DNA of 64,000 bases from Phallusia mammillata (taxonomy: Eukaryota): contig OZ281496.1 of NCBI GenBank assembly GCA_965637545.1, forward strand, positions 12,028,001 through 12,092,000. Direction: 5' to 3'. Under the pieces are notes generated by a model. The model was not told the origin of the DNA. It saw nothing but the letters and a program-made list of their open reading frames with translations, and made no database searches. The translations under genes were made by a program, and so were the position numbers. Positions 5,691 to 63,056 of the stretch are shown here, piece by piece. Each line of letters begins with the position of its first letter. Position 1 is the stretch's first letter.

Positions 5691-7948
5691 ATAAATTTGC
5701 TGTTCATTTTACATTATAATTTTCAATTGAACCTGCAAACACAAAATAGTATTTTCGAACCACATTCGGATAATTAACATATTGACTCACAATAGTCTGC
5801 CCTTCCCGTTTTGAATCAGTCATTTTCCAGAAACCTGGAGGTAATCATTGATCCCGACAAGAGTCGATGGAGGAAAACTGACAGACTAAGATTGTTTGAT
5901 CTTGTGTTTTCTGCTATACGCAAATCGCTTAAAGCTCAGTGATGGCCCATTTTAAAGACATGGTATACTGTTATTAATATTTCGACATGACTGCGATCGG
6001 AAAGGATTATTATAAAACCCAAAAAGAAAGACCCAAAGTTTACCCATCGTTTTTTGCCAATCCAATAAAACCTGTTACGTCAGCACCGTGACAAATTACT
6101 TAAGTATAGGATGAAATACCACAAGACCGACAAGTTTCACTTTTGCTCTTATTTTTTCTCAGATGTACCTTTTAGTATCATACCAGTTAGCTAAATAAGT
6201 TGGTCAGATACAAAAGATGAAAAACGTGCCGTAGGATTCGGTCTTTTCAGATCAGCCAGGTCCAAAGGCAGTGTCATCACGTTTTCCGCAGCGAACCACC
6301 ATCTATATCGACCTGACGAAAGCAGATGTTACGCTTCCATCGTCGTAAATGATTTTCCTCGGGAACCCCAGCTCTGTCTACCGGATTCCAACAGGAAACG
6401 TTCCGAACAACCCCACTGCTGTTTACGTTAGGCGAGTTTCATTTACCGCGGGTTTAACGAGCGTCTTCCATCGGGACGTATTCTACGGCAAAATATACTC
6501 AAAATTCACGAAGGGAAACATGTTTATTTTGATTGTTGAATAATAATTTTAAGTTTGCCAGTGGTATTGATCTCGAACTCACTAAGTGACTACTACACAT
6601 TGCCGTACAAATGGTCGAGTTTGACGTTAAATTAATTTGGAAACTAGAATAGTTGAAAAACTTAACCCAACTTCAAAAATTTTGTTCGTATTCTTTCTGC
6701 ATCCTTATTGTCATACAATTACAAAAAAACAGTAAATAAGAACAGGAAAAATACTCCCAATTTAATCTCCTGCTTGTACCTTGATGTTGTCGTTCAACGT
6801 CAGTTTTTAAACACAATTTTCCAAAACTTAAAATGTGCTTGATAATTTGATAAACCGACATAGCATAGCTGCGCAAAAACAGCTGATTTTAATCACCAAC
6901 ACCACTGCCTCGCGAAACGTCCGTCCGGTCGTCAAGCTGAGCACTCCCACTGAATTCACACGACTTAATCGTAACAAGTGAATTACTCCCTTGAGAGTTG
7001 AGACTTCTATCTGACTGACAGTGTACACATATTATAGGCTGTAAAAGTAACTATTTGGCCGATTAAGGCAAATTTTTAAATACTAAACGAATGACCTACT
7101 GCATACAATTGTTTAACATTTCAGCACATTAGGGCTTGTATTTCTGGCCTAAAACTTATTATTTTTTTGGGGTTTAAGGGGTGAAAATGGGTGCATCCAA
7201 TAAAAAGGGGGGGGGGGGTAAAGTTGTGTGTAAATTCAAAATGCACATTCACCATTTCTGCGTAAATTTGAAAAAGTTTGAACCATTCTTTCTTGACCAA
7301 AACGTGGGAACAAATCCACGTTAGACGAAAAAAATACAGACAAAAAGGGGACTCATAAAAACGAGTCTCGACCACGGACTCATCATTAGCATGACGACGG
7401 GACGAATAGGGGAAAGGTGAAATTAAAAAGAATAAATATTGAAACGAAGTTTTGTCCAAAAATTTACCTGGATTTGACATCATTGGAAAAGAAATAACAT
7501 TGACAAATGAAACTGTTGCCATTGTTTCAGATAACAGTTTCACCGCAGTAGCAAGTATTTTTCCTACTCAAACTGCTCTCCACGAGTTTACTAAAAACAT
7601 TAACTCGTTGCATTCGAACTTCCGTCCACTTCCTTGACGTCACAGTGGGAAAATCAACAGAAAGTCAACCAACACTTGCCTTAACACCAAATAGGAGACG
7701 ATTTTACACTCTGCGTTTTGCCACAGGGACAATTGTTTCGATAGCCAAAATATCGTTCACTGCAGTTTAGTTTTAGCTAAGCATCATGATCAAACGGCAA
7801 TTGTTGCACAGTTAAAGAAAAGAAAGCGGAATGCATAAGCAAAACATAATTTGCAAATTTTACTCTTACATTAACATTTCAGATGATTACTTCCGGTCAA
7901 CGTGAAGGGCATATTTTATTCTTAGATGTTGAATCTGTCTTGTACGTA

Positions 7949-8997
7949 TGTCTCGTCGAAAATCGACATACGCTACAGTTGCAAGTTTTATTGTTGGGGT
8001 GTTATTATCAAGCGTAATCGCGTTGAAATAAATAGAAACTATGCGTGCAAGTTTATCATCATCTTGATGTGGCAACCCAAGAGCCTGCTCACCGGGTATA
8101 AAACCGACCGACCCTGTGGAAGCTGAAAATTACGTGCATTGCATTGCAAGCTGTTTTCCCTAAATTTAATCATCGATGTTGCAAGTGATCGGCTCTGTTC
8201 TGGAAACCTATTTTTAACAGCTTAATTTTAATCTTGCATTGTAAATCTAGTAAAGACTAAGGCAGCACGACAGTGTGTCTCAAAACCCAACAGGCCGACA
8301 GATTGAATTTAATCGTCGACTGTTATTGCAAGCCGACTGCGAAACTGGACGCGTCAACTTACCAATTGCTCTGGAAAGTGGGGTGATGCTGGTGGCTTTT
8401 CATTGTTTGAAGACGGTACTGGTGCAAGGTGGTTTAGATGATATTTTGGGTAATTCGCCCATAGAAAACCAAGTGCAAAAGTTTTTCTTTTCTTTACAGT
8501 ACAAGCAAGCAGTCCGGTGGATACGGAGATGGCACGATTGGTAGGTGTAGAATATCACAGATCGAAATTGCATCATATCAAAGGTAGTTGTCCTGTTCTG
8601 ATTGCATTTGGTGTTTTATATGCAATTGTTCTTTTTAAGCGACACCGAAATAACACCAAACAAGGTAGCCAGCCATCTTATGAGAGCTGTATCCCAGGGG
8701 AGGGTGACAAGGAACACGGTGATGCTGACCTCGAACTGCAAACTAACAACTGAAAATCAACAGAACAAAGACGAACAACACGAGTAGAATATTCGTGTGT
8801 CGGAAAGTGCAGAACCAAACTTGTGTCTGATTTCTTGACGACTTTGATGCTATTAATCGACTGGTATTTGCGATGCTGCTACCCTCAACGTCGATCAACC
8901 ATCAGCCGGTTCTAGACGGTAAGTTCATTTCCCCACATTGACCGTTTTTTACTGATTTTGTTTTGTTCTTTACCATAGTAAATCGGTTTTTGCATAG
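7949..8997 (+). pseudogene. Diverged relic of the Maverick polB promoter and N-terminal exons (paralog of 54629-56946)
   Basis: Colinear nucleotide similarity including CCGGGTATAAAA, the exon CSG(K/E)WG(D/E)A.G..LFEDG, the SY(E/D)SC.PGEGDK exon, the TTCTAGACG|GTAAGT donor and the final acceptor. Several internal deletions. Confidence 0.85.
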
Positions 8998-11431: not shown

Positions 11432-12366
11432 GTGACCGCACACGACAACGCAATAGCAAACACGAATGCACTGACCTGGAACCGAAAGAAAAAAGGCAGC
11501 AGACATACAGTTCGTCGAGTACCACCGGTTGCCAGATTAAACACGCCCTTTGCTTGGTTAGAACGAAAACGAGATGATTTGTGGACACACAGTGTGCCTG
11601 TAAAACTAATCAGTCCACTGGGCAGGTTGATGTTTGTTTTTGGTCTGGTGAAAGATTTTTGTAAATCTTAGGGATCTATTACTCAGACCATAATGCGAAA
11701 GTGTAAAAAACACTGGCAACCTTTCGACTGTCAGACTCTGCCACACCACAACAGTAAAGGAGTGCAGTGACCTGTGACCCAAAGAAAAAAGGCAGTCCTA
11801 CAGCTAGTCGAGTGTCGGATTTTTACTGTGTAAATTGACAAGTGTTAATCAAAAAAGTGTATAAATTAGCTGAACGTTTGTACACATGCATAAGCATAAC
11901 ATCATTTGTGTTTATGAAATCCACTACATGGTGAAGCATTTTATAAGACAGTTGTAGCTTCTTTTATAACTGAAGAGCAACAATCTTACTCAACTTAACT
12001 CTATAAGAAAGTCGAAAAGTCAGATCAAGCATTTGCTCATAATCAGGTTCCTTGCACTGTCGTGAAACTATAATTCACGAGATTAAAATTGTGCTTGACG
12101 CTCTTTATGCTAGTTTAATTTAAATTTTGGAATATTGCGAACGTTGTTTCATGACGAATTAAATTTGCAAATATGTAGATCTAACCGTCATTTTCCATTT
12201 AGTTGTGTTTTAAAATGTACGCTTGTTTGTTCCGTTGTCAGCATGTGATTTAGCATTCATCAAATGTTATTCAATTGTTTTCGTTAGAAGCCGACATCCT
12301 GATTCAACTGACAAATTGGTTTGATAAGTAGGATAAGAACGACGGCAATTTGGACTCGAAGCAACC

Positions 12367-13293
12367 GTGTCCGAGTGCTGCGAGGAAATTTTATTTATCG
12401 GTAAACTTACAACATCCTTGCAAAGAGACAAAAAACAACTTTATGAATGTGGGTTATATGAGATATGCTTCAGACGTAAATTTACCCTTAAAATTTTCAT
12501 GATGAATCACAAAAGGAAGAAATCACATCGATGCCTTGTTTGTGCAAAAGGGTTTTGTCATGTTGGAAATTTAAATAGACACATGCTGACTCACACTGGA
12601 GAGAAACCGCACCTATGTAATGTGTGTGGAAAAAGTTTTAGTACTGTTGGAAATTTCAATGCACACATGTTGACTCACACTGGAGAAAAACCATATCGAT
12701 GTAATGTGTGTGAAAAAATGTTTCGTCAAGTTGGACATTTGAAAAGACACGCGTTGTCTCACACTGGAGAGAAACCGCACCTATGTAATGTTTGTGGAAA
12801 AAGTTTTAGTACTGTTGGAAATTTCAATGCACACATGTTGACTCACACTGGAAAAAAACCATTTCGATGTGATGTGTGTGAAAAAATGTTTCGTCAAGTT
12901 GGACATTTGAAAAGACACCTGTTGACTCACACTGGAGAGAAACCACATCGATGTGTGGTTTGTGAGAAACAGTTTAGTGAAGTTGGAGATTTGAAAAAAC
13001 ACATGTTGACTCACACTGGTGAAAAACCACATCGATGCAATGTTTGCAACAAAAGCTTTGGCCAAAAAGTAGGAGTAAAAATGCACATGAGGATTCACAC
13101 TGATGAGAAACCTCACCATTGTTATGTTTGTGAAAAAAGATTTCGCCAAGTCGGACATTTGAAATCACACATGATAACTCACACTGTTGATAAACTTTAT
13201 CCGTGTAATGTTTGCGAACAAGAATTTAGTCGAATGGGAACAATAAAAATACACATGTTGACTCACAGTAAAGAAAATCCGCGTCAATATTAG
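12367..13293 (+). CDS. C2H2 zinc-finger array protein (9 intact fingers)
   Basis: Nine CX2CX12HX3H fingers with TGEKP-type linkers in an open frame. First in-frame ATG at 12499; upstream exons are possible. Fingers 2-3 and 4-5 are a near-identical tandem duplication. Confidence 0.85.
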   Translation: MSECCEEILFIGKLTTSLQRDKKQLYECGLYEICFRRKFTLKIFMMNHKRKKSHRCLVCAKGFCHVGNLNRHMLTHTGEKPHLCNVCGKSFSTVGNFNAHMLTHTGEKPYRCNVCEKMFRQVGHLKRHALSHTGEKPHLCNVCGKSFSTVGNFNAHMLTHTGKKPFRCDVCEKMFRQVGHLKRHLLTHTGEKPHRCVVCEKQFSEVGDLKKHMLTHTGEKPHRCNVCNKSFGQKVGVKMHMRIHTDEKPHHCYVCEKRFRQVGHLKSHMITHTVDKLYPCNVCEQEFSRMGTIKIHMLTHSKENPRQY

Positions 13294-39493: not shown

Positions 39494-39769
39494 TTGAAAA
39501 GTTAATGTTTGGTAAAACTTTCATTCAGATTACTATATTTTGAACGACTGAAGAACACTGAGAGAGCAAATTGTATCATTAACAAACATCGACCCGGAAA
39601 CAGCATAACATTGAAATCATCTAATTCATTTCGTTCATACCATAACAATCATTCAATTTCGACGTTCATTCCGTTGCTACATGCTCATTCATTTTACTCC
39701 TACTGTTCATTCCGTCCCGTCGACCCATTCTTTCTATTATGATTGTTCATTTGGTTAATGCAGCTTCCA

Positions 39770-40410
39770 TTCGTTCCATTCCGACAGTTTATTATGTTTA
39801 TACTGCTTAGTTCGTTTCATTCCGAAGGTTCATTCTATTTATACAGCCTCATTGATTTCATTCCGACAATTCCTTCCATTCCTACAGCCCCATTGATTTC
39901 ATTCCGATAGTTCATTTTGTTCCTGCAGCCCTATTCATTTCATTCCGATAGTTAATTCTGTTCATACAGCCCCATTGATTTCATTCCGACAGTTCTTTCT
40001 GTTCATACTGCTTTGTTTTTTTCATTCCGACAGTTCATTCTGTCTATACAGCCCCATTGATTTCATTCCGACAGTTCATTCTGTTCATACAGCCCCATTG
40101 ATTTCATTCCGACAGTTCATTCTGTTCATACTGCTTTGTTTGTTGCATGCCGACAGTTTATTCTGTTCATATAGCCCCATTGATTTCATTTCGACAGTGC
40201 GTTCCGTTCCTACAACCTCATTATTGATTTCATTCCCACAACACCGTCATTCATGTCATTCCGACAGCTCATTCTGTTCCTACAGCTTCATTCCGACATT
40301 CATTCTGTGCATACACCGTCATTCATTTCATTCCGACATTTGATTCTATTCCGACAGTGTTCATTCCATTCCGTATACTAGTGAGCGTTCCGACCATTCA
40401 TCATTCCGTA
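39770..40410. repeat. About 41-bp minisatellite built on TTCAT subunits
   Basis: Repeated TTCATTCCGACAGTTCATTCTGTTCATACAGCCCCATTGAT with variant units. Confidence 0.9.
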
Positions 40411-41290
40411 AATTAGTGTTACCCTAGCAATTAAAACTGGGTCTTTAGTGCATTGTGATATTCCATCTAGTTTTAGTTCTGCAGGAGCTTTGTGTAAAGT
40501 TTGTTTTTGTGACAACAAACTATTAATAATTTTCCACATTCCACCAATATCATTTCTGTGATCTGTTAGTTCATTTTCAATGTATTTATGTTTAGCTTCT
40601 CTCAGAATGCGGTTTAGCTTGTTACGATACTGTTTATATTGGTCATGTTTACTTGTACTTGAAATCCCTGACCTACATAAAGCATGATACATTTTATTTT
40701 TTACTGTGATTGATTACAAATTCCTTATCCAAGGTTTCTTGGCCAGTTTTCTTCCTCTTCTACTCACTGTGGTCAGTGGTGCATGGTTAAATGAAAAAAA
40801 TTGATGTAATATAACAGTGGTATTTTCATAACAGAATCTTCTATATCTGAAATAACTTCTTCACTGATAAATTGGGTCTCATTTTTAAGGAATTTTTCTG
40901 TTCTATCACAGCAAGTTGAATGCAATAAAACAAAAGTTGGCAGGTAGACATTGTTTGTGTAAAAGTGGTCAATAAGAGTTTGGCTGTGGTTCTTCAAACG
41001 AGTTGGTTGACATATTAATAATGAAAAATCATAAATTTGCAAAGAATCTAAAAAGTTTTGAATACTTTTTACTTCCTTGTATTGCATGAGATCTATGTTA
41101 AAGTAACCACATATATACATGTTACAAGTTGTCAATAAGAGTTTGGCTGTGGTTCTTCAAACGAGTTGGTTGACATATTAATGATGAAAGATCATAAATT
41201 TGTAAAGAATCTAAAAAGTTTTGAATACTTTTTACTTCCTTGTATTGCATGGGATCTATGTTAAAGTCACCACATATATACATGTTACGG
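40378..41290 (-). pseudogene. CR1/L2-group LINE ORF2 fragment (APE C-terminus and linker) with an internal ~150-bp tandem duplication
   Basis: YICG(Y/D)FNIDL...QPTRLKNHSQTLIDHFYTNN occurs twice; YKQYRNKLNRILREAKHKY...MWKIINSLL. Confidence 0.85.
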
Positions 41291-47353: not shown

Positions 47354-49977
47354 CAGGGGTGTGCAACCTTTTTCGTCGGTGGGCCATATAAACAATTTCG
47401 GACATCAAGCGCGGGCCACTCTTTTTTCCTATACCGTATTTACACGTTTTTTACCCCACTATTGGTGCGGCTTGCATTGTAATATTATGTCGATATTATT
47501 TCCCCACGCCTGCGCTTTGTTTTATTTTGCGTTTTAATTTTCTTTCATGTTGGCTTTTACACGTCAACAAACACTCCATCGCGTAGAGCTATTTGTGTGA
47601 CTATAACAGCTGTTGACAAATAGGTGCACTCTGTAGCAAAAAAACGAAGTTTTATTATACAACAGTATCTAACATTGTTGTATAGGGCTTGCAATCGTGT
47701 AAGTACGATACACAATAAATTTGAATATTCTTATGACACACAATTTTAGTGGGACACTTGAAGTTGAGAGTCCTTACACAGCTTGTCAATGCGGGCTTTG
47801 ACAGAAGTGGTAGCTACCCTTAACTGACTAACTAAATTTTCATCAGTCAGCTGACTTCTACATCTTGTTTTGGTGAGCTTCATTTTAGAGAAAAATTGCT
47901 CACAGCAATAGGTGCTACCAAAAAGGGAAGTCATTCGTCTTGCATGTCGGGACAAATTGGGAAACTTTTCACACATGTATAGTTTGTAAAAGTCTACCAA
48001 ACTTTTTTCAGAATATTTTCTCTTTGTGTCCATGTCAGCCTGCAGTTCAACGAGTTCCATTTGGTAATCGTCAGGACTGTCTTCCACTAGGAAATCAAAA
48101 GGTTGAGCAAACAATTTCAGTTTCATTTCATTTTGTCTAAAATCTGGAAATCTGTTTCCAAACTCATCATGCAGCTTCTGTACACTTGCTACATAGTTAG
48201 CGCAATCCAGATCAGGAAATTCTCGTTTCCTGGTTGCAAGACACGTGAAATGGATCAACGTAGCTCTACTCAACTGAAATTGGAAAAGTTTTAATTTATT
48301 CTCAAAAGCACTGATATGCTCAAACAGCTTATTCACAAGCTGACTTTTTCCTTGTAATTTCAAGTTCAGGTCAGAGAGATGCTGTGTTATATCTGTGAGG
48401 AAGGCTAAATCATTCAACCAGTTGTCATCACTCAAAAACGCCACATTCTGATGTTTGCTTTCCATGAAAAACTTAATCTCCTCTCGTAGATTCCAGAACC
48501 TCTTTAGAGTGGCAGCTCTACTAAGCCAACGTATTGCAGAGAAGTACACAACATCAGCATACTCACTGTCCATGTCATGCAGAAAAGCTTTAAATTGCCG
48601 ATGGTTTAAACCTCGTGCTCGAACGTAATTTACACACAGGACAACACTTTTCATGACGTCTACAAAATCAAGAACTTTGGTACACAAGTTCTCTTGGTGA
48701 ATAATGCAGTGGCTCACAACTACGTCCTGTGCTTCAACTGCATTGAGAAATTTTGTGGTGAATCCATTTGTTTTACCTTTCATGGAAGGAGCACCATCTG
48801 TTGTAATACCACACAAGTTAGCAGGATCCAGTTCGAACTTTTTCACTACCTTAAGCACCTGTTCACAGATATCCTGTCCTGTGGTTGTCGAATATAGACT
48901 TCCCATATCTAAAAATTCTTCGACAATATCAAAGTCAGCAGTAACAGCTCTGATGAAAATGACGAGTTGGGCTGTGTCACTAATGTCAGTGCTCTCATCT
49001 AAAGCCAGACTGAAAGCTTCACATGATTTTAGTCTCTCTTTTAAAGTCTCTTTAATATCATTTGAAAGACAATTTGTTCTGCGCGAGACAGTAAAGCGCG
49101 AAAGGCTAGTTTGTTTTACCAACTGGGTTTTCTCTGGACATGCATATTCTGCGAATATTGTCAAACAATGTTTAATAAATTCTCCGTCACTGAAAGGCTT
49201 TCCTTTTTCGGCCATACTTTCACAAATCTTAAAACTGAGTTTTGTCACCAGTTCTGTGTCTTTCTTGTAAGTGGTGAAAACATGTTGTTGTTTTTTCAAA
49301 GAATTTTTCAAATGTTCTATTTTGTCCACTCGTACCTGACCAACCATCCCATCATACTGGGAGGAGTGCTTACTCAAATAATGTCGTTTAATATTATACT
49401 CTTTCATGACAGCAATTGTATTTTGGCAGACGAGACAGACAACACCTTCGTTAAGTGGCTCAACAAGATATTTTGTGCACCATTCGCTGTTGAATAACCT
49501 TCCTTCGCCATCAATTTTTCGTTTCCTAGCTGTTAACATTTCGCAAGCCCTGACACTCCTAAAATACCCTTTCAGTCTGCTGTCGCAGATATATAACTTA
49601 AGAAAACATTCCGCAATAAGCTTGCCAAGTCAACTTTAAAATGTGAGGTGCAAGTAAGTTTCGTCCCAACACTGCCTTTCACAACAAAGTAATTGTTTAC
49701 TACACAAAGAGGAATATTACGTCACATTCGGTTTAGATACGCAACAAGCACCTAATGCGAATAGAAGACTAAAGGTCTGGGTGAATTAAGTTCAATGCGC
49801 TGGTTTAGCTTATTCTTGTTACGTATAGCAACTTAGGAGATTTACCGAAAACTAGCCAGGATTTTTTGCTAAAATGTGCATTTTTACTTGCTCTGAATTT
49901 AGAATGTTGTTGCGGGCCACACTAAATGGCTTGGCGGGCCGGATTGTGGCCCGCGGGCCGCGGGTTGCACACCCCTG
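47354..49977 (-). mobile_element. Intact SPIN/Buster-type hAT transposon
   Basis: Perfect 15-bp TIR CAGGGGTGTGCAACC, perfect TSD GTCTACAA and an uninterrupted transposase ORF. Confidence 0.96.
47746..49539 (-). CDS. hAT transposase, 597 aa, apparently intact
   Basis: BED-type CLVC...RHYLSKH; LALDESTD, TTDGAPSM, HCIIHQENL, AIRWLS, TYCCEQFFS and the C-terminal dimerisation region. Confidence 0.95.
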   Translation of the reverse strand: MLTARKRKIDGEGRLFNSEWCTKYLVEPLNEGVVCLVCQNTIAVMKEYNIKRHYLSKHSSQYDGMVGQVRVDKIEHLKNSLKKQQHVFTTYKKDTELVTKLSFKICESMAEKGKPFSDGEFIKHCLTIFAEYACPEKTQLVKQTSLSRFTVSRRTNCLSNDIKETLKERLKSCEAFSLALDESTDISDTAQLVIFIRAVTADFDIVEEFLDMGSLYSTTTGQDICEQVLKVVKKFELDPANLCGITTDGAPSMKGKTNGFTTKFLNAVEAQDVVVSHCIIHQENLCTKVLDFVDVMKSVVLCVNYVRARGLNHRQFKAFLHDMDSEYADVVYFSAIRWLSRAATLKRFWNLREEIKFFMESKHQNVAFLSDDNWLNDLAFLTDITQHLSDLNLKLQGKSQLVNKLFEHISAFENKLKLFQFQLSRATLIHFTCLATRKREFPDLDCANYVASVQKLHDEFGNRFPDFRQNEMKLKLFAQPFDFLVEDSPDDYQMELVELQADMDTKRKYSEKSLVDFYKLYMCEKFPNLSRHARRMTSLFGSTYCCEQFFSKMKLTKTRCRSQLTDENLVSQLRVATTSVKARIDKLCKDSQLQVSH

Positions 49978-51255
49978 GTCTACAAACTAGCAGAAATGAA
50001 CTTCTTTCAATAACACGCAAGTCAACCCATAATAATAAGAAAGTTTCTGAAAGTGAAACTGCAGAAAGGCACGTGTTGACGCACACCAATGAAAAAGCCC
50101 ATGAATGTCATGTTTGTGAAAAACGATTTTCTAGACGTGGAACTTTGAAAAGGCACATGTTGACACACCTAAGTGAAAAAGCCCACGAATGTCTTGTTTG
50201 TAAGAAAAGATTCACCCTAAGTGATTATTTGAAAACACACCTTGTTACACACACCAATGAGAAACCACATCGATGTGACGTTTGTGAAAAACGATTTTCT
50301 CGAGGGGGAACTTTGAAGACTCACATGCTGACACACACCAAAGAGAAACCTTACAGATGCGATGTTTGTGACAATTTGTTTAGTCTAAGAGGAGGATTGA
50401 AAAGACACATGTTTATTCACACCAAAGAAAAACCCCTTCAATGTCATATTTGTGGGAAAACATTTGCTCTAATTGGAACTATGAAAATACATATGCTGAC
50501 ACACACCAATGAAAAAAAACATATATGTTATGTTTGTGAGAAAAAATTTGCCCGTAGTGGAACTTTGAAAACACACATGCTGACACACATCAATGAAAGA
50601 GCCCACAAATGTCATCTTTGTGAAAAAAGATTCACCCGAGGCGATTATTTGAAAACACACCTGGTTACACACTCCGGTGAGAAACATCATCGATGTGATG
50701 TTTGTGACAAAAGATTTGCCCTCCGTGGTTCTTTGAAAAGACACATGTTAATACATACCGATGAGAAACCTCATCGATGTGATGTGTGTGACAAAAGATT
50801 TAATATAAGAGAAGATTTGAAAAGACACATGTTGAGACACCAAAGAAAAGTCTCATTGATGTTTTGTTTGTGAAAAACGATTAGCCCGAGGTTATTACAT
50901 GAAAATACACATGTTTACACACACTAAAAAAAATTAAAAACGCACAACTTCCCCCCTTTAAACCGAACAAACAGATTTGTTTTGGCAAAAGTATCCCTTA
51001 TGTCGTCACACAAACTTGGATTAAAACACAAACACGCATCTGACTTATCAAAACAATCCGCTATACTGTCACAGACTTGCTTGGGTGATATTATCAACTT
51101 TTTATCCAGCCACTAAAAATGTCTAAACTGTCTGTAGACAAAACGAAGATCAGATTTATCAGAACATTGAGCCACTAAATCGTAAATGCTGGTTTAAGGA
51201 AAAACGCAAACAGCTTGTCTCGATGATCCAGGGATCCAGGGCAAACCAAAATCTC

Positions 51256-53266: not shown

Positions 53267-53715
53267 AGTAGTATTGGTTCGTCCCGGGGCTCCCTCCACC
53301 TATTTTGGTCCCGCCACCCCCGAGTGGCACCCGCTACCTATTTTGGTCCCGCCACCTATTTTATCATTGTTCTGTGAGATCGCGACCGGTCGAGAGAGAG
53401 AGAGAGAGATGAGGGCTAGAGCCGGCGGCGGTTTTTGTCTGGCTTATTTCAGGTATTTGTTCGGGGTCTGTTCGGCGCTGTCTACCTTGCATTTTCGGCT
53501 ATGCTGAGAAGGTTATTTTGTTAAGAAGGTAACTGTCATTTTGCGAAATAAAATAAGCAACTATTAATGAAATTTTGTTTCCAACAACGGCTGCGTGGAA
53601 ATGCTATTCACAACTTAAAAGTCGAGTGAAGAGAGGGCTAGAGCCGGCGGCGGTTTTTGTCTGACTTATTTCAGGTATTCGTTCGGGGTCTGTTCGGCGC
53701 TGTCTGGCTTGCATT

Positions 53716-53783
53716 TTCGGACGACTTCGGACGGCTTCGGACGGCTTCGGACGGCGGACGACTTCGGACGGCTTCGGACGGCT
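53716..53783. repeat. 10-bp tandem repeat TTCGGACG(G/A)C in the Maverick terminal region
   Basis: About six copies, embedded among ~90-bp direct duplications (53411/53633 and 53531/53940). Confidence 0.9.
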
Positions 53784-54810
53784 CGCACGTTTTCGGACGT
53801 TGGTGGTTGGAAGCTATAGGAATTTCTCACAGCTGAAAGCCTTTGAATATCTACGTTGAGAAGGTTATTTTGTTTCTTTGTCTATTTGTTACCATGCTGA
53901 TGTATTGATGCTTTTATTTATTGATATGTTGTTTTTCCGACTGTCATTTTGTGAAATAAAATAAACAACTTATGAAATTTTGTTTCCAACAACGGCTGCG
54001 CGGAATTGCTATTCACAACTTAAAAAAGAAAAAAAATCATTAAACTTTGTTATTCTACAAAGAAAGGGGGGGTCACTGATAATACTAGGAAAACTTTTCA
54101 AACAACTGCTGCGCTAAAATGCTATTTACCAAGAAACAAATAAACTTTGTTATTCTCCAAAGAAAGGCGCTTTTTTATATTAGTAGGAAAACATTTTCAA
54201 ACTTCCGTGCTAAAATGCTATTCACAAGTGAAAAAGAAACAAAAAAATCAAATAAACTTTGTTATTTTGCTAAGAAAGGAAGTATTTAAAAACAGCGGTA
54301 AAACAAGAACTTTTCTGCGCTGTACTGCTTTTACCCTGAAACCGGCGCTGAGCACACTATTAACAACTGTTTTGGTGAAACGTCATTTCTAAGTTTAAAA
54401 TAAAAAATAGATAAACTTCGTCGTTATCAAAGGGTGTTATAATTGAGATTTCGCACTGAAACTCACGCGAAAAAATCGAAACTGGTGAATACTACAAAAT
54501 GCAGCAAAGACATATTGTTAAACCTGTTTTGACTGCGTCTGTAAGTTGTTTGAAGTCTATGCAGCAATTTTCTCGATCGTCCAACCCTGATTTGACATCG
54601 TAAAAATGTAATTACGTCTCAGTCGGTGTGTCTCGTCGATAATAATCGGCGTGCGCGACAGTTGCAAGTTTTATTGTTGGGGCGTTACGCGATCTGTTGT
54701 TTGTTAGCGTAATCCCTTTAAAGGCGGCGAAATTAAAAAACTAGGCGTGTTAGTGTGTGTAAATAAAAGAAAACTGCGTTGTAGATGCGGCAACCCCCGG
54801 GGGCGAACTG

Positions 54811-54823
54811 ACCGGGTATAAAA
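54811..54823 (+). promoter_or_regulatory. TATA-containing promoter motif of Maverick polB
   Basis: ACCGGGTATAAAA is conserved exactly at 8091-8103; a related CCGGATAAAA lies at 60409-60418, upstream of the next ORF. Confidence 0.65.
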
Positions 54824-54935
54824 CTCGCCCTGTAGAATCTGAAAAATTACTTACTTACATTGCAAGCTGTGTTATCTATACATCGTATAGTTGACTATTA
54901 GTTTGTCTTGTGTTTTCAACTCTGAAAAAAAAACT

Positions 54936-57900
54936 ATGAATCCCATGCGTAGTTATCAATGCGGCAAATGTCCGGCTCTCTTCTGGACAGAAGCTAATAT
55001 GCGTGCTCATGAAGCTTCTTGTTCGTCGATTATCAAGTGTTCCTATTGCGATAAGCGGTGAGTGGTATTTTTTTAAGAGTTCTTGCATTGTATTTTTAAA
55101 ACTAATACGTCTTTTTCATCTGTTGCAGACTCTCGACAAAGGCGACCCTGCGTCGTCATGTAAAAACAGCGTGTCGCAAAAACCCCAACAAGTCAGCAGA
55201 CGCTCGATGTCCCCGTTGTGGAATTGTGTAAGTTTTCCTTCGCCTTTAGTTTGAAGTTTACCCTTGAATTTGAAATTATCGCCTGTTATTCCAGGACCAA
55301 GGTGCGAAGCTACACACGGCACCTTGCCAAATGCTCTGGGGAGTGGGGTGAGGCTCGTGGCGTTCCGTTGTTTGAGGACGGTGCTTCCGCAAGGTAGTTA
55401 GGTAATCGCCAAAAAGCGACGGAAATTCAAACATTGCTTTTTATATGCAGTACAAGCAGGCAGTCGGAAAAAATGGAGACGGCACGATCGGCGGGTGTAG
55501 AATCGGAGATCGACACTACATCGGACCAAAGGTAGTTGCCCTGTTCTAATCGCCTTTGGTGATTTTATTTTTGCAATTGTAGTTGTTTTTCAGCGACATC
55601 GAAATTCCGCCAAACATGGTCGCGGCGTCATACGACAGCTGTAGCCCTGGTGAGGGTGACAAGGTACCCGATGACGACCTCGAACTTGCTCATTGGTAAG
55701 TCAACAACGGGTAACCGTTTTCTGAGCAATTGTGCTTATTCGGTTCCTATATTGCAGTGCGAGCGACTATGCCGACAATGAAATAGCGGAAGGTTGGTTC
55801 GAAGAAGAAGAGCCTCCTCTCATCAACACTCGGCCAACCTCGCCCAGTCCCAGTGAGCAGAGTTTCCTGATTCAAGAAGCTGTTAATAACACTTCTGGCA
55901 CGTGGGACGATATTTAAGTTTTTGACACCCATAATAACTGCTTAAAGTAAAATAAAAATTACCGACGTTTTTATGTTACAGAGCGCCAGCGGAAGACGGT
56001 GAAAATCCATCGAGCCAAGGGTATGCTTTCAGAATTTTTAGCAGTCGACATAGAGTCGAGGCACACCTTACTGAAAATATTTCTTTTCTTTTTTCTAGGC
56101 AGGAAACCTTTTCCCAGCTCGTTCAAAGTGATGTAGCTAGCGAATCGGATATTCTTAGGTGGGAAAGAAACAAGGCAGTCTTGTGCGCCGCCTGCGGTTT
56201 TTGGTAAGTAACATAACAGCCGACGTGTCGGATTACTTTGTGACTTTGATAATATTGTCCGACTGTTACAGGCGTTTACCGTTGTCGGCTCACGTGTGCA
56301 ATGTCATCCCATCAGACATGAATATTCAGCCTACTGCAAATTCCAGACCGTAAGTGTCTTTTTGCAGTAACCGTTTTGTGTTTTTTAAATATAAATTGTT
56401 ACTCGTTTTTTTTCGTCACACCGCGGTTACCATTGCCTTTTCGGGCATTATAAAAAAACACTGGACGCTTCTTTTCCTAGGTTAGAACGCGTGTCCGAAA
56501 ATGGACATGAAGAACACCTAAACGAGTCTGATGTTCGTGCATTGGAAAACGCAGAACCGATCCTGTGCGATATCTGCGGTTGTTGGTCATATTTCCTGGC
56601 GACTTTGATGCTATTAACCGACTTGTTTAGGAGTTTACCATCGGAGGGTCACGTCTGCGATGCAACCCCCCAACGACAATTCCGATATTCGCACTGTGGA
56701 AAACGCAAAACCAGGCTTGTGTTGTATCTGCGGCCGTTGGTAAGTACCCTGAAAGCAAAAAGTGTCCTATTTCTTGACGACTTTGATGCTATTAAACCAA
56801 TGTTTTAGGAGTTCGGAGGGGCACGTCTGCGACGCTACTCCAAGCCTCGATCCTCAACCTTCTGCCGATTCTAGACGGTAAGTTTGCATTGACCTTTTTG
56901 TGTGATTTTCTTTTTTTTTTATAGTAAAACGGTTTTTACACCTCAGATCTCGACCAATTCAGCAGGGCGGCGCCGTAGACCGGTCTGAAAAGATGCGGGA
57001 ACCGCGTCCACTGCCTGGCAGTCGCCAACACGTTATAGTCACGGAAACAGCTCTGCGCCCCGCTAGTGGCATCATCGCGGAGCGTTGGGACGCGATACGA
57101 TCGCACCGGGATCTAGGTCCAATTAGTGGTGCGTTCAACTATCGATTGCCGTTGGACTGGCGCACCAGCACTGTCGCGCAGGACATCATGGCTGTGCGCT
57201 AACGGGCCTTCTGCATCAACGCAGGTTTCGGGTTTGGTCACGGGCGAAACGCGATACTTCCACACGTCAGACAACAATTTCCATTTGTTCGACGACACGG
57301 TGTTAATTCGCTCCCTCGACGAGCTCCAGGCCTTTTCTCGAGCAGGTTGCTGAGCGAGATTGCTTGGAGTGGCTTAGGCTTCAGCGCGAGGATTCGTCGT
57401 GGGTCGTGGAAGCGATCACGAATGTTACCTTTTTTTGTTATTATGTGGACGGGCCGTTTATCGGGCAAGCTGAGCAGCTTCCGATCCACTTGTTGCGGAA
57501 TCGTGGCTTGGCGCTTCATAGGAACTGTCCGAGGGCGGCTGATTAAAGACAACCTGTGCTTTTTCCGCTGCCTGGCCTTGTTTCGTGACTCTAGTCCAGA
57601 AACGGTGGAGGCGAATGCGGCAGGCTTCTGTCAGCAATATTGCTTGGCGGTCGATGGCGGTTTTAACCCCGACACTTTTCCCGGTGTGAAACTGGTGGAT
57701 CTGCCAGTCATTGAGGAGCTGTTCAAGCTCAACATCAATGTTTTTCATTTGGCGGCCGACGCTCCTCGGAACGGTTGCGTTTTAAAGTCGCGGAGTGTGC
57801 GTCGCCGCGCATTCAAGGAACCTCGCATCCTCAATTTACACCTTTTCAAGGAGCATTTCAGTTATATAGAAAATTTGGACATACTTGCATCAGGATGTGT

Positions 57901-60098
57901 GTGCAAGGTCTGCAGGAAACACTTTGGAAAGTTGTCCAAGTGCAGTGAGCACGAAAACACCTGCAAAGGTCTGGTGAAAAACGTCTATGTTGGCGGGGTG
58001 TATTCCACGTCTAAGTCAGTGTTGGATGCGCTTGACGAGGCCGGTATAGAAGTGCCCACATCCCTTCGTTTTTTCCCTTTCCGGGCTGCATTCGACCTCG
58101 AGGCGTACTTCAAAACGGAGAATCTCCCTGCAAATGCGTCAAAGACCACCTGGCACGCCGAGCATCTTCCCTTGAGCGTTTCCATTTGTTCTAACGTTCC
58201 TGGCTTCCAGGAGGCCAATTGCTTCGTCACGGATGGGGACGCTGCGAAACTCGTCGATCGCATGCTTTCCTATCTCGTGCGAGTTCAGGAGGCTTCACGC
58301 GAAGCAATGATGGAACGCTTTCAGGGCGTTTTTGACGATTTGGACAGGCTACTGGCTGAATCGTGTAAACGCGAGCCGTGCCAGGAAGTTGACAACCACC
58401 CTCTGGCAAAACTCCGCTCGCGTCTTGTCACGCACCTTACGATTTTGCCAGTCATCAGCTTCAACGGTGGGAAATATGATATCAATTTGATGAAGCGATG
58501 GTTCCTGCTCCAGCTCACCCGAACCGTCACCATCACCTTTGTGGTGAAACGGAACAATAACTTTATGTGCATCCAGACACATAGGTTTAAATTCCTGGAT
58601 ATGAGGAACTATCTTGCCCCAAACCATTCATATGCGTCTTTTCTTCGCGCTTTCGGATGTGACGCCGAGAAGGGATGGCTTCCATACAAATACATGACGG
58701 ATCTGTCCCGACTCCACGAAACAGCTTTACCGCCTATTGACGCGTTTTACACTTCGTTGACAAAGAAGGCTTTGGCGCTTGAAGAATACCAACGCTGCGT
58801 GGAGGTATGGAGCCAGGAGGGAATGTCGTCATTGCGCGACTTTCTCCGATGGTACAACAACCTAGACGTTGTCCCATTTCTTCAAGCGATCCAAAAACAC
58901 TTTGAATTCTTCGAGAGCCGCGGTGTGGATGCTTTATGGATGGTCTGTCCCTACCGGGTCTCACTTTAAATTTTTTGATGAAAACTGTCAGTCACGATGT
59001 CAATCTTACCCTGTTCGGCCCGAGACATCAACACCTTCACCGGTTGATGCGTGAGGCCGTTGTTGGTGGTCCCTCCATAGTTTTTTCAAGATACCAGCAC
59101 GCTGGAAAAACCTGCATTCGTCCGATGAAATATGGCAACAGTGCCAAGGTCTGCGGTTCTGTGGTCGGCTTTGACTGCAACTCGATGTACCTGGACTGTT
59201 TAGGATCGCTGCAATGCACATCATATTTTACAGTTCTGGTTAGCAAACCCGATTCTGTCGACCGTGAAGTCGTGTGAAGTACGGTTGACTGGCGGGCGAA
59301 TGGCTGGACTAACTAACAATGCAAAACACCGGAAGATCAAGTATCTCGACGAGCAACAGGCCCAAGCTGCAGTGGCATTACCGGAGTTTGAGAGACAGAC
59401 CGAAGTTGGCGACGGCATTTTCGAGGTACAACTCCGGAAAAGTCGCTTAGTCCATGACTTGCCCATTCAGTGTGGGCTTCTCGTCTACCAAATGGCTAAG
59501 TTGAGGCTTCTGGAGTTTTACTACGATTGCCTCGATCGTTATGTCGACCGAAGGGACTTTCAATTGGCTCAATGTGACACTGACAGTTTGTACTATGGGA
59601 TATATCAGGCAAACAGATGAGTGACGTCGGCCAAACCTTCGTCGCGAGTTTTTTTAGGCATACCACACGTGGTTTCCAGCGGAGGCTTGCGACGCCCATC
59701 GCAGCGACTTTGTCGAGCGGTCGATCGCTGGAAAGACATTCCATGCAGCGGCATGCTGTAAAGCCAACAAAAAGCACCACCTTAGGACTCCGGGATTGTT
59801 TAAACTGGAATGGGCCGGTCAGGCAATTGTAGCCTTAACGTCAAAGACCTATTACTGCCACGGGTCGACGGATAAACAGGCGGGCAAGGGCCTGAACAAC
59901 GCGCAGAACCCCTTTGACCTACAGCGCTATCTGGATGTTTTGAATTCGGCGACCAGCTCCAGTGGAACAAACGTTGGATTCAGATGCCTGAACCAAAGCG
60001 TTTTTACGTACGAGCAGACCCGTCAGGGTTTGACGTACTTTTAACCAAAACGCAAAGTTCTGGCGGACGGCTTTTCGACTGCTCCACTGGACATCTAA
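54936..60098 (+). pseudogene. polB: Protein-primed family B DNA polymerase with a 12-intron zinc-finger N-terminal extension
   Basis: Exons 54936-55057, 55129-55227, 55295-55393, 55451-55531, 55594-55695, 55758-55901, 55982-56020, 56099-56203, 56272-56349, 56481-56585, 56631-56739, 56809-56877 and 56947-60098. The last exon has AAFDLEAYF, FNGGKYD, KFLDMRNY, KGWLPY, YNNLDV, VGGPSIVF, GFDCNSMY, CDTDS and SKTYYC, with stops and frameshifts. Confidence 0.9.
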
Positions 60099-60508
60099 AA
60101 CCCGGACGACATCCACACACACCCATACACCCAGATCAAAGGTAATTTACGGTTGGGCGTGTGCGAAACACGCTTTGTTTGTTGCTGTTGTTGATAAATT
60201 ACAACCTGTTTTTTTTTTACAATCCACCCCTATCGAACTTAGTTTATTACAGCAGCGAGGGTCATAAAGCGAAATTCACTGTACCAATAAAAGCGCCATG
60301 CCTGCGATAGTTGAGTACTCACACCCAAACTTTACAACCTTACCCGCGGTCGTCGAGGGACATTAAGTACCCCGCCTCGTACGCCGCCACGGCCCCGGGT
60401 CAATTTTGCCGGATAAAAGCGCAACGACGTCGAGTAAATATTCACACTGATTCATTTCCAGACAACTGAACATCAGCAGAAGCAACAGCAAGCAAACAAG
60501 CAAGCAGC

Positions 60509-61150
60509 ATGGAAACACCAACCAAACGACCCATTCTCGCAGATATTACCAACGCCCCGAAGAGAGCTCGTTCGATTTTCGCCGGGATTCGAGGAAAGCG
60601 CGCCCGTGGAAGTAAGTACAAAAATACCTTGCACTAATACCGGCAGCGGAAATAAATTGTATGATAACGCTTGCTCTATTTTCCACAGTCGCTCCAACAC
60701 CGCATTTGCGCTGCGCTACCTTGACCCTCAAAGTTGGCAAAGGCGATTTTTTCGAGACCCAACAGCTCCGCGCTCTCTGCGCCCACCTGTTCGAAGAGAC
60801 TCTCCACATCCTGGTGTTTCCCACACCGGCGGAAGACGGCTACAACCGGGTGCAGGTCGTGTACTGGGCGACTTGCGATAGCGACAAACAATGTCTGATC
60901 GCCACGCGGGTCAGAAGAGGTGAAAAACGATGGCGCGTGGATCAACTTTAAAACCTGAACGGTTTTTGCCGCCGAGAAGTACTTCAAGCCGATCATCAAG
61001 AACGTGGTTTGCTATGAAGTCAACAACAGCTTTCGAAACCTGGTCGATTCAGGCGAGCGCCAGCAACTCGAAATGCTGGAACGCCTGTTTCACGACGAGG
61101 AAGCAACCACGCTGGCCCCACTCAACCTGGCTTTCGACAGCGACTGTTGA
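60509..61150 (+). pseudogene. Two-exon Maverick accessory gene with an N-terminal D-box-like motif and a basic NLS-like stretch
   Basis: Exon 60509-60611, GTAAGT..TTCCACAG intron, and exon from 60689 joining in frame (METPTKRPILADITNAPKRARSIFAGIRGKRARGIAPTPHL...). Frameshift and stop near 60910-60955, then coding-like sequence to 61150. Confidence 0.65.
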
Positions 61151-61390
61151 TTTACTTAAAAAATTTTTTGGCAAAAAAATGATTCTGTAAACCGAGTACT
61201 CTTTCTTTTTGTGTGTTTTTTCTGTGATGTTTTTCTTTTAAAAAAATTTTCGGGGGTATTCGTAACGTAATAAAACAAAGCTATAACTGTCGCACTTGTG
61301 TCAAAAAACAGTTTGTCAGTGTTGAGGTACCACGTTTTATTTGCAAGCAAGTACATACACCCACACACACGCACAAACACGCACACGAAA

Positions 61391-61540
61391 TCACAAGTCG
61401 GCAACAAAATCTTGCACAATGCGGTCGTTGCGCATCAGGTCAGAGTCAAAGCAACGCACGATTTGTTTCAATGCAAATCCACGCACTCGATGTAGCAGAT
61501 AAAACACACAATGCTGCCCGCACGCAGTTGAAAATGGCAG
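61391..61540 (-). pseudogene. C-terminus of Maverick adenain-like cysteine protease
   Basis: PFSTACGQHCVFYLLHRVRGFALKQIVRCFDSDLMRNDRIVQDFV matches the S..CG..C..YL..R..G...ND..V..F Polinton protease end. Confidence 0.85.
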
Positions 61541-63056
61541 GAGATAAACGCATTTTTGGATCAGTTGCCACCATCTCAGCTGACAACCTTGGTGCACACC
61601 AACTTGGTGGCCTGCGTATGTGCTTTAGCAGTGGACGTATATGCAGATTTTGTATGTGCATGCATAGTGATATTAAAAACAAGTGTAAAGAAGCAGATTT
61701 TGTGTTGCGGATTCCTGCTGTTCATAGTATGCATGTTAAAGAAGTGGCTCAAGATGGATCGCTTACAGCTTCCTATGGGGTTGCAAGAGACTGTGTGTTT
61801 AATGTATTACCAGGCATTTCAACTGTGACTGCTTTTCCACCTGACCTTATGCATGATTGCTTAGAAGGAGTTGTTCCGAAGTTCCTCCAGTCCATATTTA
61901 GATATTTGCACATTGAGGGAATCTGTTCTATTGCCTTGATAAACGAAAGGTTAAAAAAGTTCCAAGTTTGGAAAAACTAAACAGAGAAATAAGCCCCGAC
62001 CTCTTCCAGGAAATGTTGTTTTGTCCTCTGGTAAAGTTTCACTTTCAGCAAGTGAAACCCTGTGTTTATTCAGAGTTTTACCTTTTGTTATTGGAGATAT
62101 TGTCCCTACATATGATGAGGCCTGGAGATTGTATGTTCTGATGTCAAATATTATGGAGATCATTTTGGCGCCATCACTCCATGCTGATGTTCTTGACAAA
62201 TTAAAGATTTTAATTGAGGAATTTTATTCCAAGTTTATCAAGTTCGCTCCTGATTTGATAAAACCAAAGCTTCATTTTCTTTTGCATTATCCTCGACTTA
62301 TACAGATGTATGGGCCATTAAGGCACCTGTGGTGCATGCGTTTCCAATCATTTCAAAGGAAAATAAAGTCCATAGCACGGAATTGCCAAAATTTTTAAAA
62401 TATTTGTTTGACTGTCACAAAACGTATTCAGGCTTTAAAGTGTTATGAACAGTGCAATGAAATTTGTTTAACTGATGATTTAGGAGAACTCCGATGTAAC
62501 AACGCCTTATCCATGTATCTTGGCAACTGAACATGCCTACCCTGCTGTATACGTGCAAAAACGTTGGATATGCAATTGCCCAACGTTTGGCGAAGCTTTA
62601 ATTGTGTTAATCACGTCATATTGGATATTCGATGTGAGGTTTCCGAAGGCCCTTACGTGCACGCTGCAGCTTCTATCGTTCGTTCTCAAAATATCGGAAA
62701 CTATTCAAAACCCAACAGTGCAAAAATTATTAATTCGCTTTAAGATTGAGCCAAATAACTTGTTCGTTAATATTTCATGTTTCTTTTCTGCATGATCTTC
62801 AAGCGTTAATAAATGTAAAGGGACATTAATATGTCGTGTGTATTATGTAACCATGGTACACACCATGGTTCGTCAGGCATGGATGGGCATTCCCACCAAT
62901 AAACTTGAAAAACGTTTAGGATGGAAAATACCATCATAAATTTTTCCATCCTCAGGGTTGTGAAACTCCATGGTAGGATGGAAAATTCCATCCAATTGTG
63001 GACCACCCTAGGGGCAAGCAAATTCCACCCTCCGGGTGGGATCCCGATTTACAGTG
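61541..63056 (+). mobile_element. 3' half of an EnSpm/CACTA (CMC) DNA transposon
   Basis: ISADNLGAHQLGG...CRFC...DLMHDCLEGVV, KPKLHFLLHYP and GPLRHLWCMRF. Right terminus TTTACAGTG (complement of CACTGTAAA) with subterminal GGATGGAAAA/TTCCATCC repeats. Confidence 0.88.

What the first reader, a model, noticed from the sequence alone, without database searches (positions are those of the whole stretch)
54936..60098. Maverick DNA polymerase built from 13 exons with 12 uniformly phase-2 introns, adding six zinc-binding modules
Seen: starting at ATG 54936, twelve short introns (45-131 nt, GT-AG) can be spliced so that every intron is phase 2 and ten of eleven internal exons are multiples of 3 (exon 11 has one extra base). 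The product reads through three C2HC fingers (YQCGKC..HEASC; KCSYC..HVKTAC; RCPRC..HLAKC), an acidic linker and three CxxCGxW..HVC modules, then joins in frame via IQQGG to the terminal-protein/PolB region. Established: Polinton and adintovirus polB genes are generally described as intron-poor, with variable N-terminal accessory domains. Inference: a virus-like element that evolved a host-style, exon-shuffled, alternatively spliceable N-terminus, where any symmetric exon can be skipped, perhaps released by its own protease near QQGG. This copy is now a pseudogene. Two donors are weak (GTGGGA at 55902 and a deletion-damaged GTCATA at 56586).
Basis: partly seen in the sequence, partly recalled or inferred. 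Interest (0 to 1): 0.85.

Follow-up and report, generated by a model that had tools for sequence, protein, structure and literature searches.

The report
Intron-rich leader of Maverick polymerase
The DNA polymerase gene of a virus-like Maverick element in an animal genome begins with a long zinc-finger leader cut by twelve short introns, most of which are seen removed in public RNA-type data; they all share one reading phase, likely because the leader grew by repeated duplication around one ancestral intron, and this copy is broken.

Summary
The introns are real. Three RNA-type runs (two studies) skip 9 of the 12 in the listed joints, a DNA-type run none; overlapping contigs link exon 1 to the polymerase. 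One correction: donor 6 lies at 55914, not 55902 (still phase 2). It and donor 10 are damaged here; the core has stops, frameshifts and a large deletion, so this copy is a transcribed relic. An unbroken sister Maverick family (53% identity) has the same layout: 16 of 17 predicted introns phase 2 in a phase-blind model, and 8 versus 6 tandem exon+intron units in two near-identical copies. Five of the twelve introns cut CxxC modules at the same offset, so uniform phase likely reflects duplication and growth inside introns, not exon shuffling or designed skipping. The first fingers are ancestral: distant relatives carry 2-4 fingers in one open frame with PolB. Papers read call Maverick core genes intronless; this scan has noted spliced Maverick polB genes in other genomes (unchecked AI notes). 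New variant of a known kind.

The parts
53277..53360 (+). Left end of the element (AGTAGT terminus and terminal repeat)
   Evidence: the same sequence bounds related ends elsewhere in the genome, one beside an ATPase gene
53400..54305 (.). Subterminal direct repeats
   Evidence: D11, D13-D15, D17
54817..54822 (+). TATA box, likely polB promoter
   Evidence: RNA-type contigs begin at 54871 and 54895, none in 54300-54773; role inferred
54936..55057 (+). Coding exon 1: start codon, finger 1, first half of finger 2
   Evidence: only ATG in 54800-54940
55129..55227 (+). Exon 2: end of finger 2, start of finger 3
55295..55393 (+). Exon 3: end of finger 3
55451..55531 (+). Exon 4, linker
55594..55695 (+). 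Exon 5, acidic linker
55758..55913 (+). Exon 6, acidic linker (corrected end); its donor at 55914 is damaged in this copy, and retention ends the frame at 55915-55917
55982..56020 (+). Exon 7, 39 nt
56099..56203 (+). Exon 8: first half of CxxC-x9-H-x-C module 1
56272..56349 (+). Exon 9: second half of module 1
56481..56585 (+). Exon 10: first half of module 2; the following donor is damaged by a deletion and intron 10 is retained in this haplotype
56631..56739 (+). Exon 11: end of module 2, start of module 3; carries a frameshift
56809..56877 (+). Exon 12: end of module 3
56947..60098 (+). Last coding exon: QQGG motif, terminal-protein-like domain, OTU-like domain, PolB core; broken by stops near 57200 and 60042, frame changes near 57236, 57334, 57530, 58931 and 59610, and a deletion of roughly 280 codons near 59256-59309
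   Evidence: domain folds from the sister copy
60142..60461 (+). 320-nt GT-AG intron after the polB stop; spans an AATAAA at 60286 and joins to the next gene's first exon
   Evidence: 3 of 3 RNA-type runs, not X11
60509..61150 (+). Second gene (homolog of the 220-codon ORF of the sister element), phase-1 intron at 60612-60688, frameshift near 60930
   Evidence: (table 7)
61394..61537 (-). Remnant of the adenain-like protease gene; no other core gene found beyond it in the window or the next 20 kb

Best explanation
This is the spliced polB gene of a Maverick/Polinton element, whose zinc-finger leader likely grew by repeated duplication and exon gain around an ancestral phase-2 intron, and this copy is transcribed but broken. 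Shown: the element end, the exons, splicing of most introns, linkage of leader to polymerase by overlapping contigs, the same layout in related copies, and tandem exon+intron units that differ in number between two near-identical unbroken sister copies. Inferred: the ancestor had 2-4 fingers fused without introns to TP-vOTU-Exo-Pol; one lineage gained a phase-2 intron two codons and two bases after a CxxC; duplicating a unit that spans an intron, or forming a new exon inside an intron, keeps the downstream polymerase in frame only if the new exon is phase 2-2, so every later intron inherits the phase. In working copies the host spliceosome would make one constitutive mRNA for a long polyprotein. 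Predicted, untested: the leader binds zinc and probably DNA, and is cut off near Q-x-G-G/Q-x-G-x-G by the element's adenain-like protease.
For: Splicing and linkage: (X5 contig 20 spans exons 1-8; X1 contig 2 spans exon 9 to 57993). Same offset: introns 1, 2, 8, 10 and 11 of the window and 2 of 17 in the sister copy fall two codons plus two bases after the second Cys. Visible duplication: introns 8, 10, 11 are homologous (z 7.5-13.7, 0 of 300 shuffles each) and so are exon pairs 8/10, 9/11, 9/12, 10/11, 11/12. Sister family: TIRs, 6-bp target duplication, integrase, protease and ATPase genes; a phase-blind splice model gives 16 of 17 introns phase 2, score 70.6, against a maximum of 46.2 and 91 of 229 phase 2 in the 20 of 40 shuffles that gave a chain; a hand-checked chain is 17 of 17; 8 versus 6 copies of a 258-nt exon+intron unit. 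Its last exon has no Met before residue 59 although the terminal-protein-like region starts earlier. A third family keeps a 141-nt phase 2-2 exon of different sequence, and the three form one clade (SH-aLRT 100, quick tree). Fingers are ancestral: L014, L015, L019 have them in one frame with PolB; 80 of 114 homologs reaching the N-terminus carry at least one. Selection on the spliced frame: 10 of 18 listed leader variants and 20 of 38 overall are synonymous; mismatch in relatives by codon position 0.157/0.122/0.195.
Against: DNA-level homology is clear for only 3 of the 12 introns; 9/12 (8 of 300 shuffles), 2/8 (1 of 300) and 2/4 (4 of 300) are weak given 66 pairs. The origin of linker introns 3-7 is not shown. 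The sister copy's introns are predictions with no RNA laid, the model was trained on the window's junctions, eight identical units inflate its score, and one hand-chosen donor (3820) is weak. Tandem copy numbers can be assembly errors. Contigs are not single molecules and drop rare isoforms. Exon 11 may be 109 nt in the other haplotype too, so no fully open allele of this family was shown. The tree is quick and midpoint-rooted; gain rather than loss rests on parsimony. The 120 homologs are highly redundant.
Confidence: 0.75

Rival explanations
1. The symmetric exons are kept so that the leader can be alternatively spliced, giving polymerase variants with different finger sets.
For: All introns phase 2 in two diverged families with unrelated linker sequences; linker introns 3-7 show no clear duplication; 9 of 11 single-exon skips make no stop codon.
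Against: Introns cut fingers in the middle; skipping exon 6 or 12 makes a stop; no skipping joint among the 15 listed, though 7 were not shown and contigs drop rare forms.
Confidence: 0.1
2. The locus is being domesticated: with donor 6 dead it would make a 220-residue three-finger acidic protein, or a regulatory RNA, for the host.
For: Held by RNA-type runs of several studies; contigs identical to the broken polB occur in two samples; the element has lost its right arm.
Against: Another haplotype splices past this stop; synonymous excess runs through leader and core alike; contig depth is low; no ortholog in another species was tested.
Confidence: 0.08
3. The leader is a host gene fragment captured with its introns and fused to polB.
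For: Host-style introns and C2H2-like fingers; nematode Mavericks carry intron-containing cargo genes (10.1101/2022.07.12.499685, passages).
Against: Relatives across animals have the fingers in frame with PolB; the DNA search with the 5' exons found only element copies among 14 matches (a lower bound); linkers differ between families while the architecture is shared.
Confidence: 0.05

Closest known systems
Maverick/Polinton elements of vertebrates (PMC8097293, passages read) and nematodes (10.1101/2022.07.12.499685, passages read)
   Same: pPolB, rve-chromodomain integrase, adenain-like protease, IVa2/A32-like ATPase, TIRs with AGTAGT ends and 6-bp target duplication in the sister copy
   Different: Those papers describe the core genes as intronless; here polB has 12 introns (17 predicted in the sister family) in its leader, and its RNA splices on into the next gene
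Polinton pPolB domain order TP-vOTU-Exo-Palm (10.1101/2024.03.18.585575, passages and section 5 read)
   Same: The model of the sister copy's last exon matches OTU domains (best Z 8.5, rmsd 4.3, 118 aligned) and, more weakly, Y-family polymerase little-finger domains (Z about 5)
   Different: A spliced leader of several hundred residues lies upstream of TP; the passages read mention no zinc finger or intron
Adintoviruses (PMC8502044, passages read)
   Same: OTU-bearing PolB; best viral fold match is a 'C2H2-type domain-containing protein' of Drosophila-associated adintovirus 2 (E 1.9e-14); CxxC-rich 'Oncoid' ORFs are described upstream of PolB
   Different: There the CxxC ORFs are treated as separate genes; here CxxC exons are spliced to PolB; no LxCxE motif seen by eye in the exon peptides
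Introner-containing Maverick-like proviruses of dinoflagellates (10.1101/2025.03.18.643946, passages read)
   Same: Introns inside Maverick-like elements
   Different: Those are mobile intron insertions; these are confined to a leader, share one phase and expand as exon+intron units
Genes built from tandem exon-intron repeats of one phase, such as collagens (recalled, no call)
   Same: Uniform phase through duplication of intron-spanning units
   Different: Host genes, not a viral replication enzyme

Membership tests
Maverick/Polinton | Protein-primed family B polymerase | tested here: met
   45-61% identity to the unbroken sister PolB, whose homologs carry PF03175; its own Pfam hit is weak (E 0.006, below cut-off); the window pieces gave none
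Maverick/Polinton | TP and vOTU domains before the exonuclease | tested here: met
   Model of L005:7950-9059, mean pLDDT 79.5; OTU matches fill the top 22 rows, TP-type little-finger match only Z about 5; tested on the sister copy
Maverick/Polinton | [quoted passage not shown] | tested here: inconclusive
   Left end present at 53277, right end not found; both met in the sister copy on C7
Maverick/Polinton | Integrase, ATPase, protease and capsid genes | tested here: inconclusive
   Only a protease remnant in the window; integrase, ATPase and protease met in the sister copy; the two capsid ORFs are assigned by size and position, no Pfam hit
Maverick/Polinton | Intronless core genes, as described for vertebrate and nematode elements (descriptive, not a formal criterion) | tested here: not met
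   this is the variant trait
Adintovirus Alpha or Beta PolB class | Similarity to the reference Alpha or Beta PolB | not tested
   No reference sequence was compared; the weak PF03175 hit only hints at the divergent class
Exon-shuffled modular gene | Introns at domain boundaries | tested here: not met
   5 of 12 introns lie inside CxxC modules at one offset
Alternatively spliced cassette gene | Exon-skipping isoforms in RNA | tested here: inconclusive
   None among 15 listed joints; 7 not shown; contigs only
Zinc fingers | Zinc coordination by Cys/His | not testable with these tools
   Motif spacing only; C-x2-C-x9-H-x-C spacing is shared with the sister family

The most novel reading that the evidence does not exclude
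A Maverick lineage uses a phase-locked array of exon+intron units as an accordion in front of its polymerase: units are added or removed between copies, and perhaps skipped in RNA, without breaking the frame, so a viral replicase gains a fast-evolving, protease-released accessory protein; the same RNA also carries the next gene.
Probability: 0.2. Interest if true: 0.8.

Novelty: new variant of a known kind. Interest (0 to 1): 0.6.

Why it matters
Surveys define working Mavericks by intronless ORFs and discard short upstream 'exons' as noise (PMC8097293, passages). RNA-supported introns in polB show that some lineages depend on nuclear splicing and that their polymerase N-termini are mis-annotated. 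Near-identical copies that differ by whole exon+intron units give a small system in which intron multiplication and phase inheritance can be watched directly.

Tried and rejected
Donor 55902 rejected. A phase-0 intron predicted inside the sister polB frame was rejected as spurious and vanished. Pfam found nothing for the window's polB pieces. A stretch at C2:7343635-7354326 with family ends on both sides is an inverted duplicate across a run of N, not a full copy. No unbroken copy of the window's own family was found among the scored candidates (lower bounds). No run is on record as RNA: 'RNA' is the tool's guess, backed here by GT-AG joints absent from X11; X11 may be the assembly's own source. 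Only 4 of 19 listed runs could be laid, and only on the window. Kapitonov and Jurka 2006 is not held, so it was not seen; it is cited only through PMC8097293. Paper searches listed no report of a spliced Maverick polB leader; Repbase entries, subscription journals and supplements were not seen and may describe one. Term searches in PMC11131425 (0 hits), PMC10294476, PMC8363768, PMC6431247, 10.1101/2023.08.22.554363 and 10.1101/2024.03.25.586562 gave nothing on this point. The careful tree did not finish. Look-ups of earlier findings by place and by sequence were empty. The structure of the whole spliced leader remains open.
Full report
What was checked. The window is G000:C3:12028001-12092000 of a 240-Mb assembly; the host is taken to be an animal from the element type and its relatives, and was not identified. 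All 12 proposed introns have GT-AG ends, lower GC than the exons, and phase 2 when each exon is read on its own.

RNA evidence. Fourteen of 19 listed runs hold part of the stretch; four were laid. In the three RNA-type runs (two studies) the listed joints match introns 1-4, 7, 8, 11, 12 (3 of 3 runs) and 9 (2 of 3); the DNA-type run lists none of them; 7 joints were not shown. Intron 5 appears in table 5c. Contigs start at 54871 and 54895, just after a TATA box at 54817. X5 contig 20 spans exons 1-8 and X1 contig 2 runs from exon 9 to 57993, so leader and polymerase form one splice graph; contigs do not prove single molecules.

Corrections. Intron 6 starts at 55914, not 55902: contig length (766 predicted, 766 seen) and bin depth (6.3, 6.3) fit only that site, and 3 of 4 relatives have a canonical donor there against 0 of 4 at 55902. 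Phase is unchanged. In this copy that donor is damaged; X1 depth (14.8) fits retention (12.4-15.1) better than splicing (9.6-11.7), a weak test; retention ends the frame at 55917 after 220 codons. Intron 10 is retained in contigs identical to the window. Exon 11 is frameshifted, and the core has two stops, several frame changes and a deletion of roughly 280 codons. Contigs in X1 and X5 run on with other sequence at the deletion and X5 differs at some other breaks, so a less damaged haplotype or copy exists; no fully open one was shown.

Context. The element starts at 53277, carries polB, a second gene and a protease remnant, and is cut off near 61540. Many more degraded relatives lie between about 11.5 and 17.7 Mb of C3, several lacking 58603-60280. 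A sister family (53% identity over 429 columns) has two unbroken, 99% identical copies with TIRs, a 6-bp target duplication and all core genes. A model of the start of its last exon (pLDDT 79.5) matches OTU domains and, weakly, Y-family little-finger domains, the TP-vOTU order described in 10.1101/2024.03.18.585575 (passages and section 5).

The layout is inherited. Upstream of the sister PolB frame a phase-blind splice model finds 17 introns, 16 in phase 2 (score 70.6; best of 20 shuffle chains 46.2; 91 of 229 shuffle introns phase 2); a hand-checked variant is 17 of 17. It has two fingers, an unrelated linker, and one C-x2-C-x9-H-x-C module where the window has three. A third family keeps one phase 2-2 exon. 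The three form a clade in a quick tree of 52 rows (45 of the 120 homologs were offered to it). More distant families in the same genome have three fingers in one open frame with PolB, and 80 of 114 homologs that reach the N-terminus carry 1-4 finger patterns (redundant set; two are named, from Branchiostoma lanceolatum and Apostichopus japonicus, and could be spliced gene models). The fingers are therefore old, and the introns and long linker are likely gains of one clade.

Why one phase. Five window introns (1, 2, 8, 10, 11) and two sister introns sit two codons and two bases after the second Cys of a CxxC or CxC, the mark of one intron copied with its module. Introns 8, 10 and 11 and exons 8-12 are still homologous as DNA. 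The sister copies hold 8 and 6 tandem units of a 123-nt exon plus 135-nt intron. Duplicating a unit that spans an intron, or forming an exon inside one, keeps the polymerase in frame only with a 2-2 exon (reasoning from the genetic code). The origin of linker introns 3-7 is not shown, which leaves room for the splicing rival. The next gene's intron is phase 1 and absent from the sister copy, so the phase lock is local to the leader.

Selection. Of 40 listed differences (148 in all; 2 dropped as untranslated or at the frameshift), 20 of 38 are synonymous, 10 of 18 in the leader (p 2e-4 and 0.005 against a recalled 25% expectation). In 12 genomic relatives third positions differ most and splice dinucleotides least. 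The spliced frame was under purifying selection until fairly recently.

Against designed skipping and exon shuffling. Introns cut modules in the middle; skipping exon 6 or 12 makes a stop; no skipping joint is listed (limited). Cleavage: Q-x-G-G or Q-x-G-x-G motifs occur at the start of the last exon in both families and in two small ORFs of the sister element, one with a weak adenovirus protein X hit; the adenain consensus is recalled, and cleavage is untested.

Comparison. PMC8097293 and 10.1101/2022.07.12.499685 (passages) call Maverick core genes intronless; PMC8502044 (passages) describes CxxC ORFs upstream of PolB as separate genes; 10.1101/2025.03.18.643946 (passages) reports mobile introns in dinoflagellate elements. 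Ten searches listed no paper on a spliced polB leader, with the gaps noted. Earlier notes of this scan describe spliced Maverick polB genes in other genomes; they are unchecked AI notes, but they make intron-bearing polB look recurrent. What this locus adds is RNA support, the number of introns, the single phase and a visible mechanism. Verdict: real, new variant of a known kind, interest 0.6.

Noticed in passing
window 60142-60461: RNA-type contigs of 3 of 3 runs splice from 43 nt after the polB stop, over an AATAAA, into the next gene; none covers the skipped part. Suggests a two-gene RNA, or a promoter inside polB. The sister element has its own AATAAA and TATA between the two genes.
   Followed up: partly
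window 56984 (run X4, table 7): One contig continues from early exon 13 into sequence matching the element's left end (53299 onward) in the same orientation: a head-to-tail or circular form, or a rearranged copy.
   Followed up: no
window 7946-8994: Degraded, internally deleted paralog of the promoter and leader exons, 66-84% identity.
   Followed up: partly
G000:C3 about 11.5-17.7 Mb: Most degraded copies of this family found cluster in one region that also holds C2H2 zinc-finger arrays; several share a deletion of window 58603-60280, also seen as a DNA joint in X11.
   Followed up: partly
window 12337-13293 and 49926-50873: Tandem C2H2 zinc-finger ORFs with 84-nt period; similar finger stretches sit at both ends of the unbroken C3 element.
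   Followed up: no
window 47746-49629 (-): 626-codon open frame with Spin-doc zinc finger, DUF4371 and hAT dimerisation domains: hAT-type transposase.
   Followed up: no
window 61228-62800: Transposase-like remnant (weak DUF4218 hit) that cuts off the Maverick after the protease remnant; CACTA-like by recall.
   Followed up: no
L014:4764-5370 and L015:4480-5430: In the distant families an acidic ORF lies upstream of the finger-PolB frame, followed by an intron-like stretch ending in an acceptor just before the start codon; perhaps the seed of a spliced leader (read by eye).
   Followed up: no
L005:7000-7380: Three 140-nt repeats inside a 623-nt predicted intron of the sister leader.
   Followed up: no
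window 39665-40357 and 40960-41285: 41-nt and 163-nt tandem repeats.
   Followed up: no
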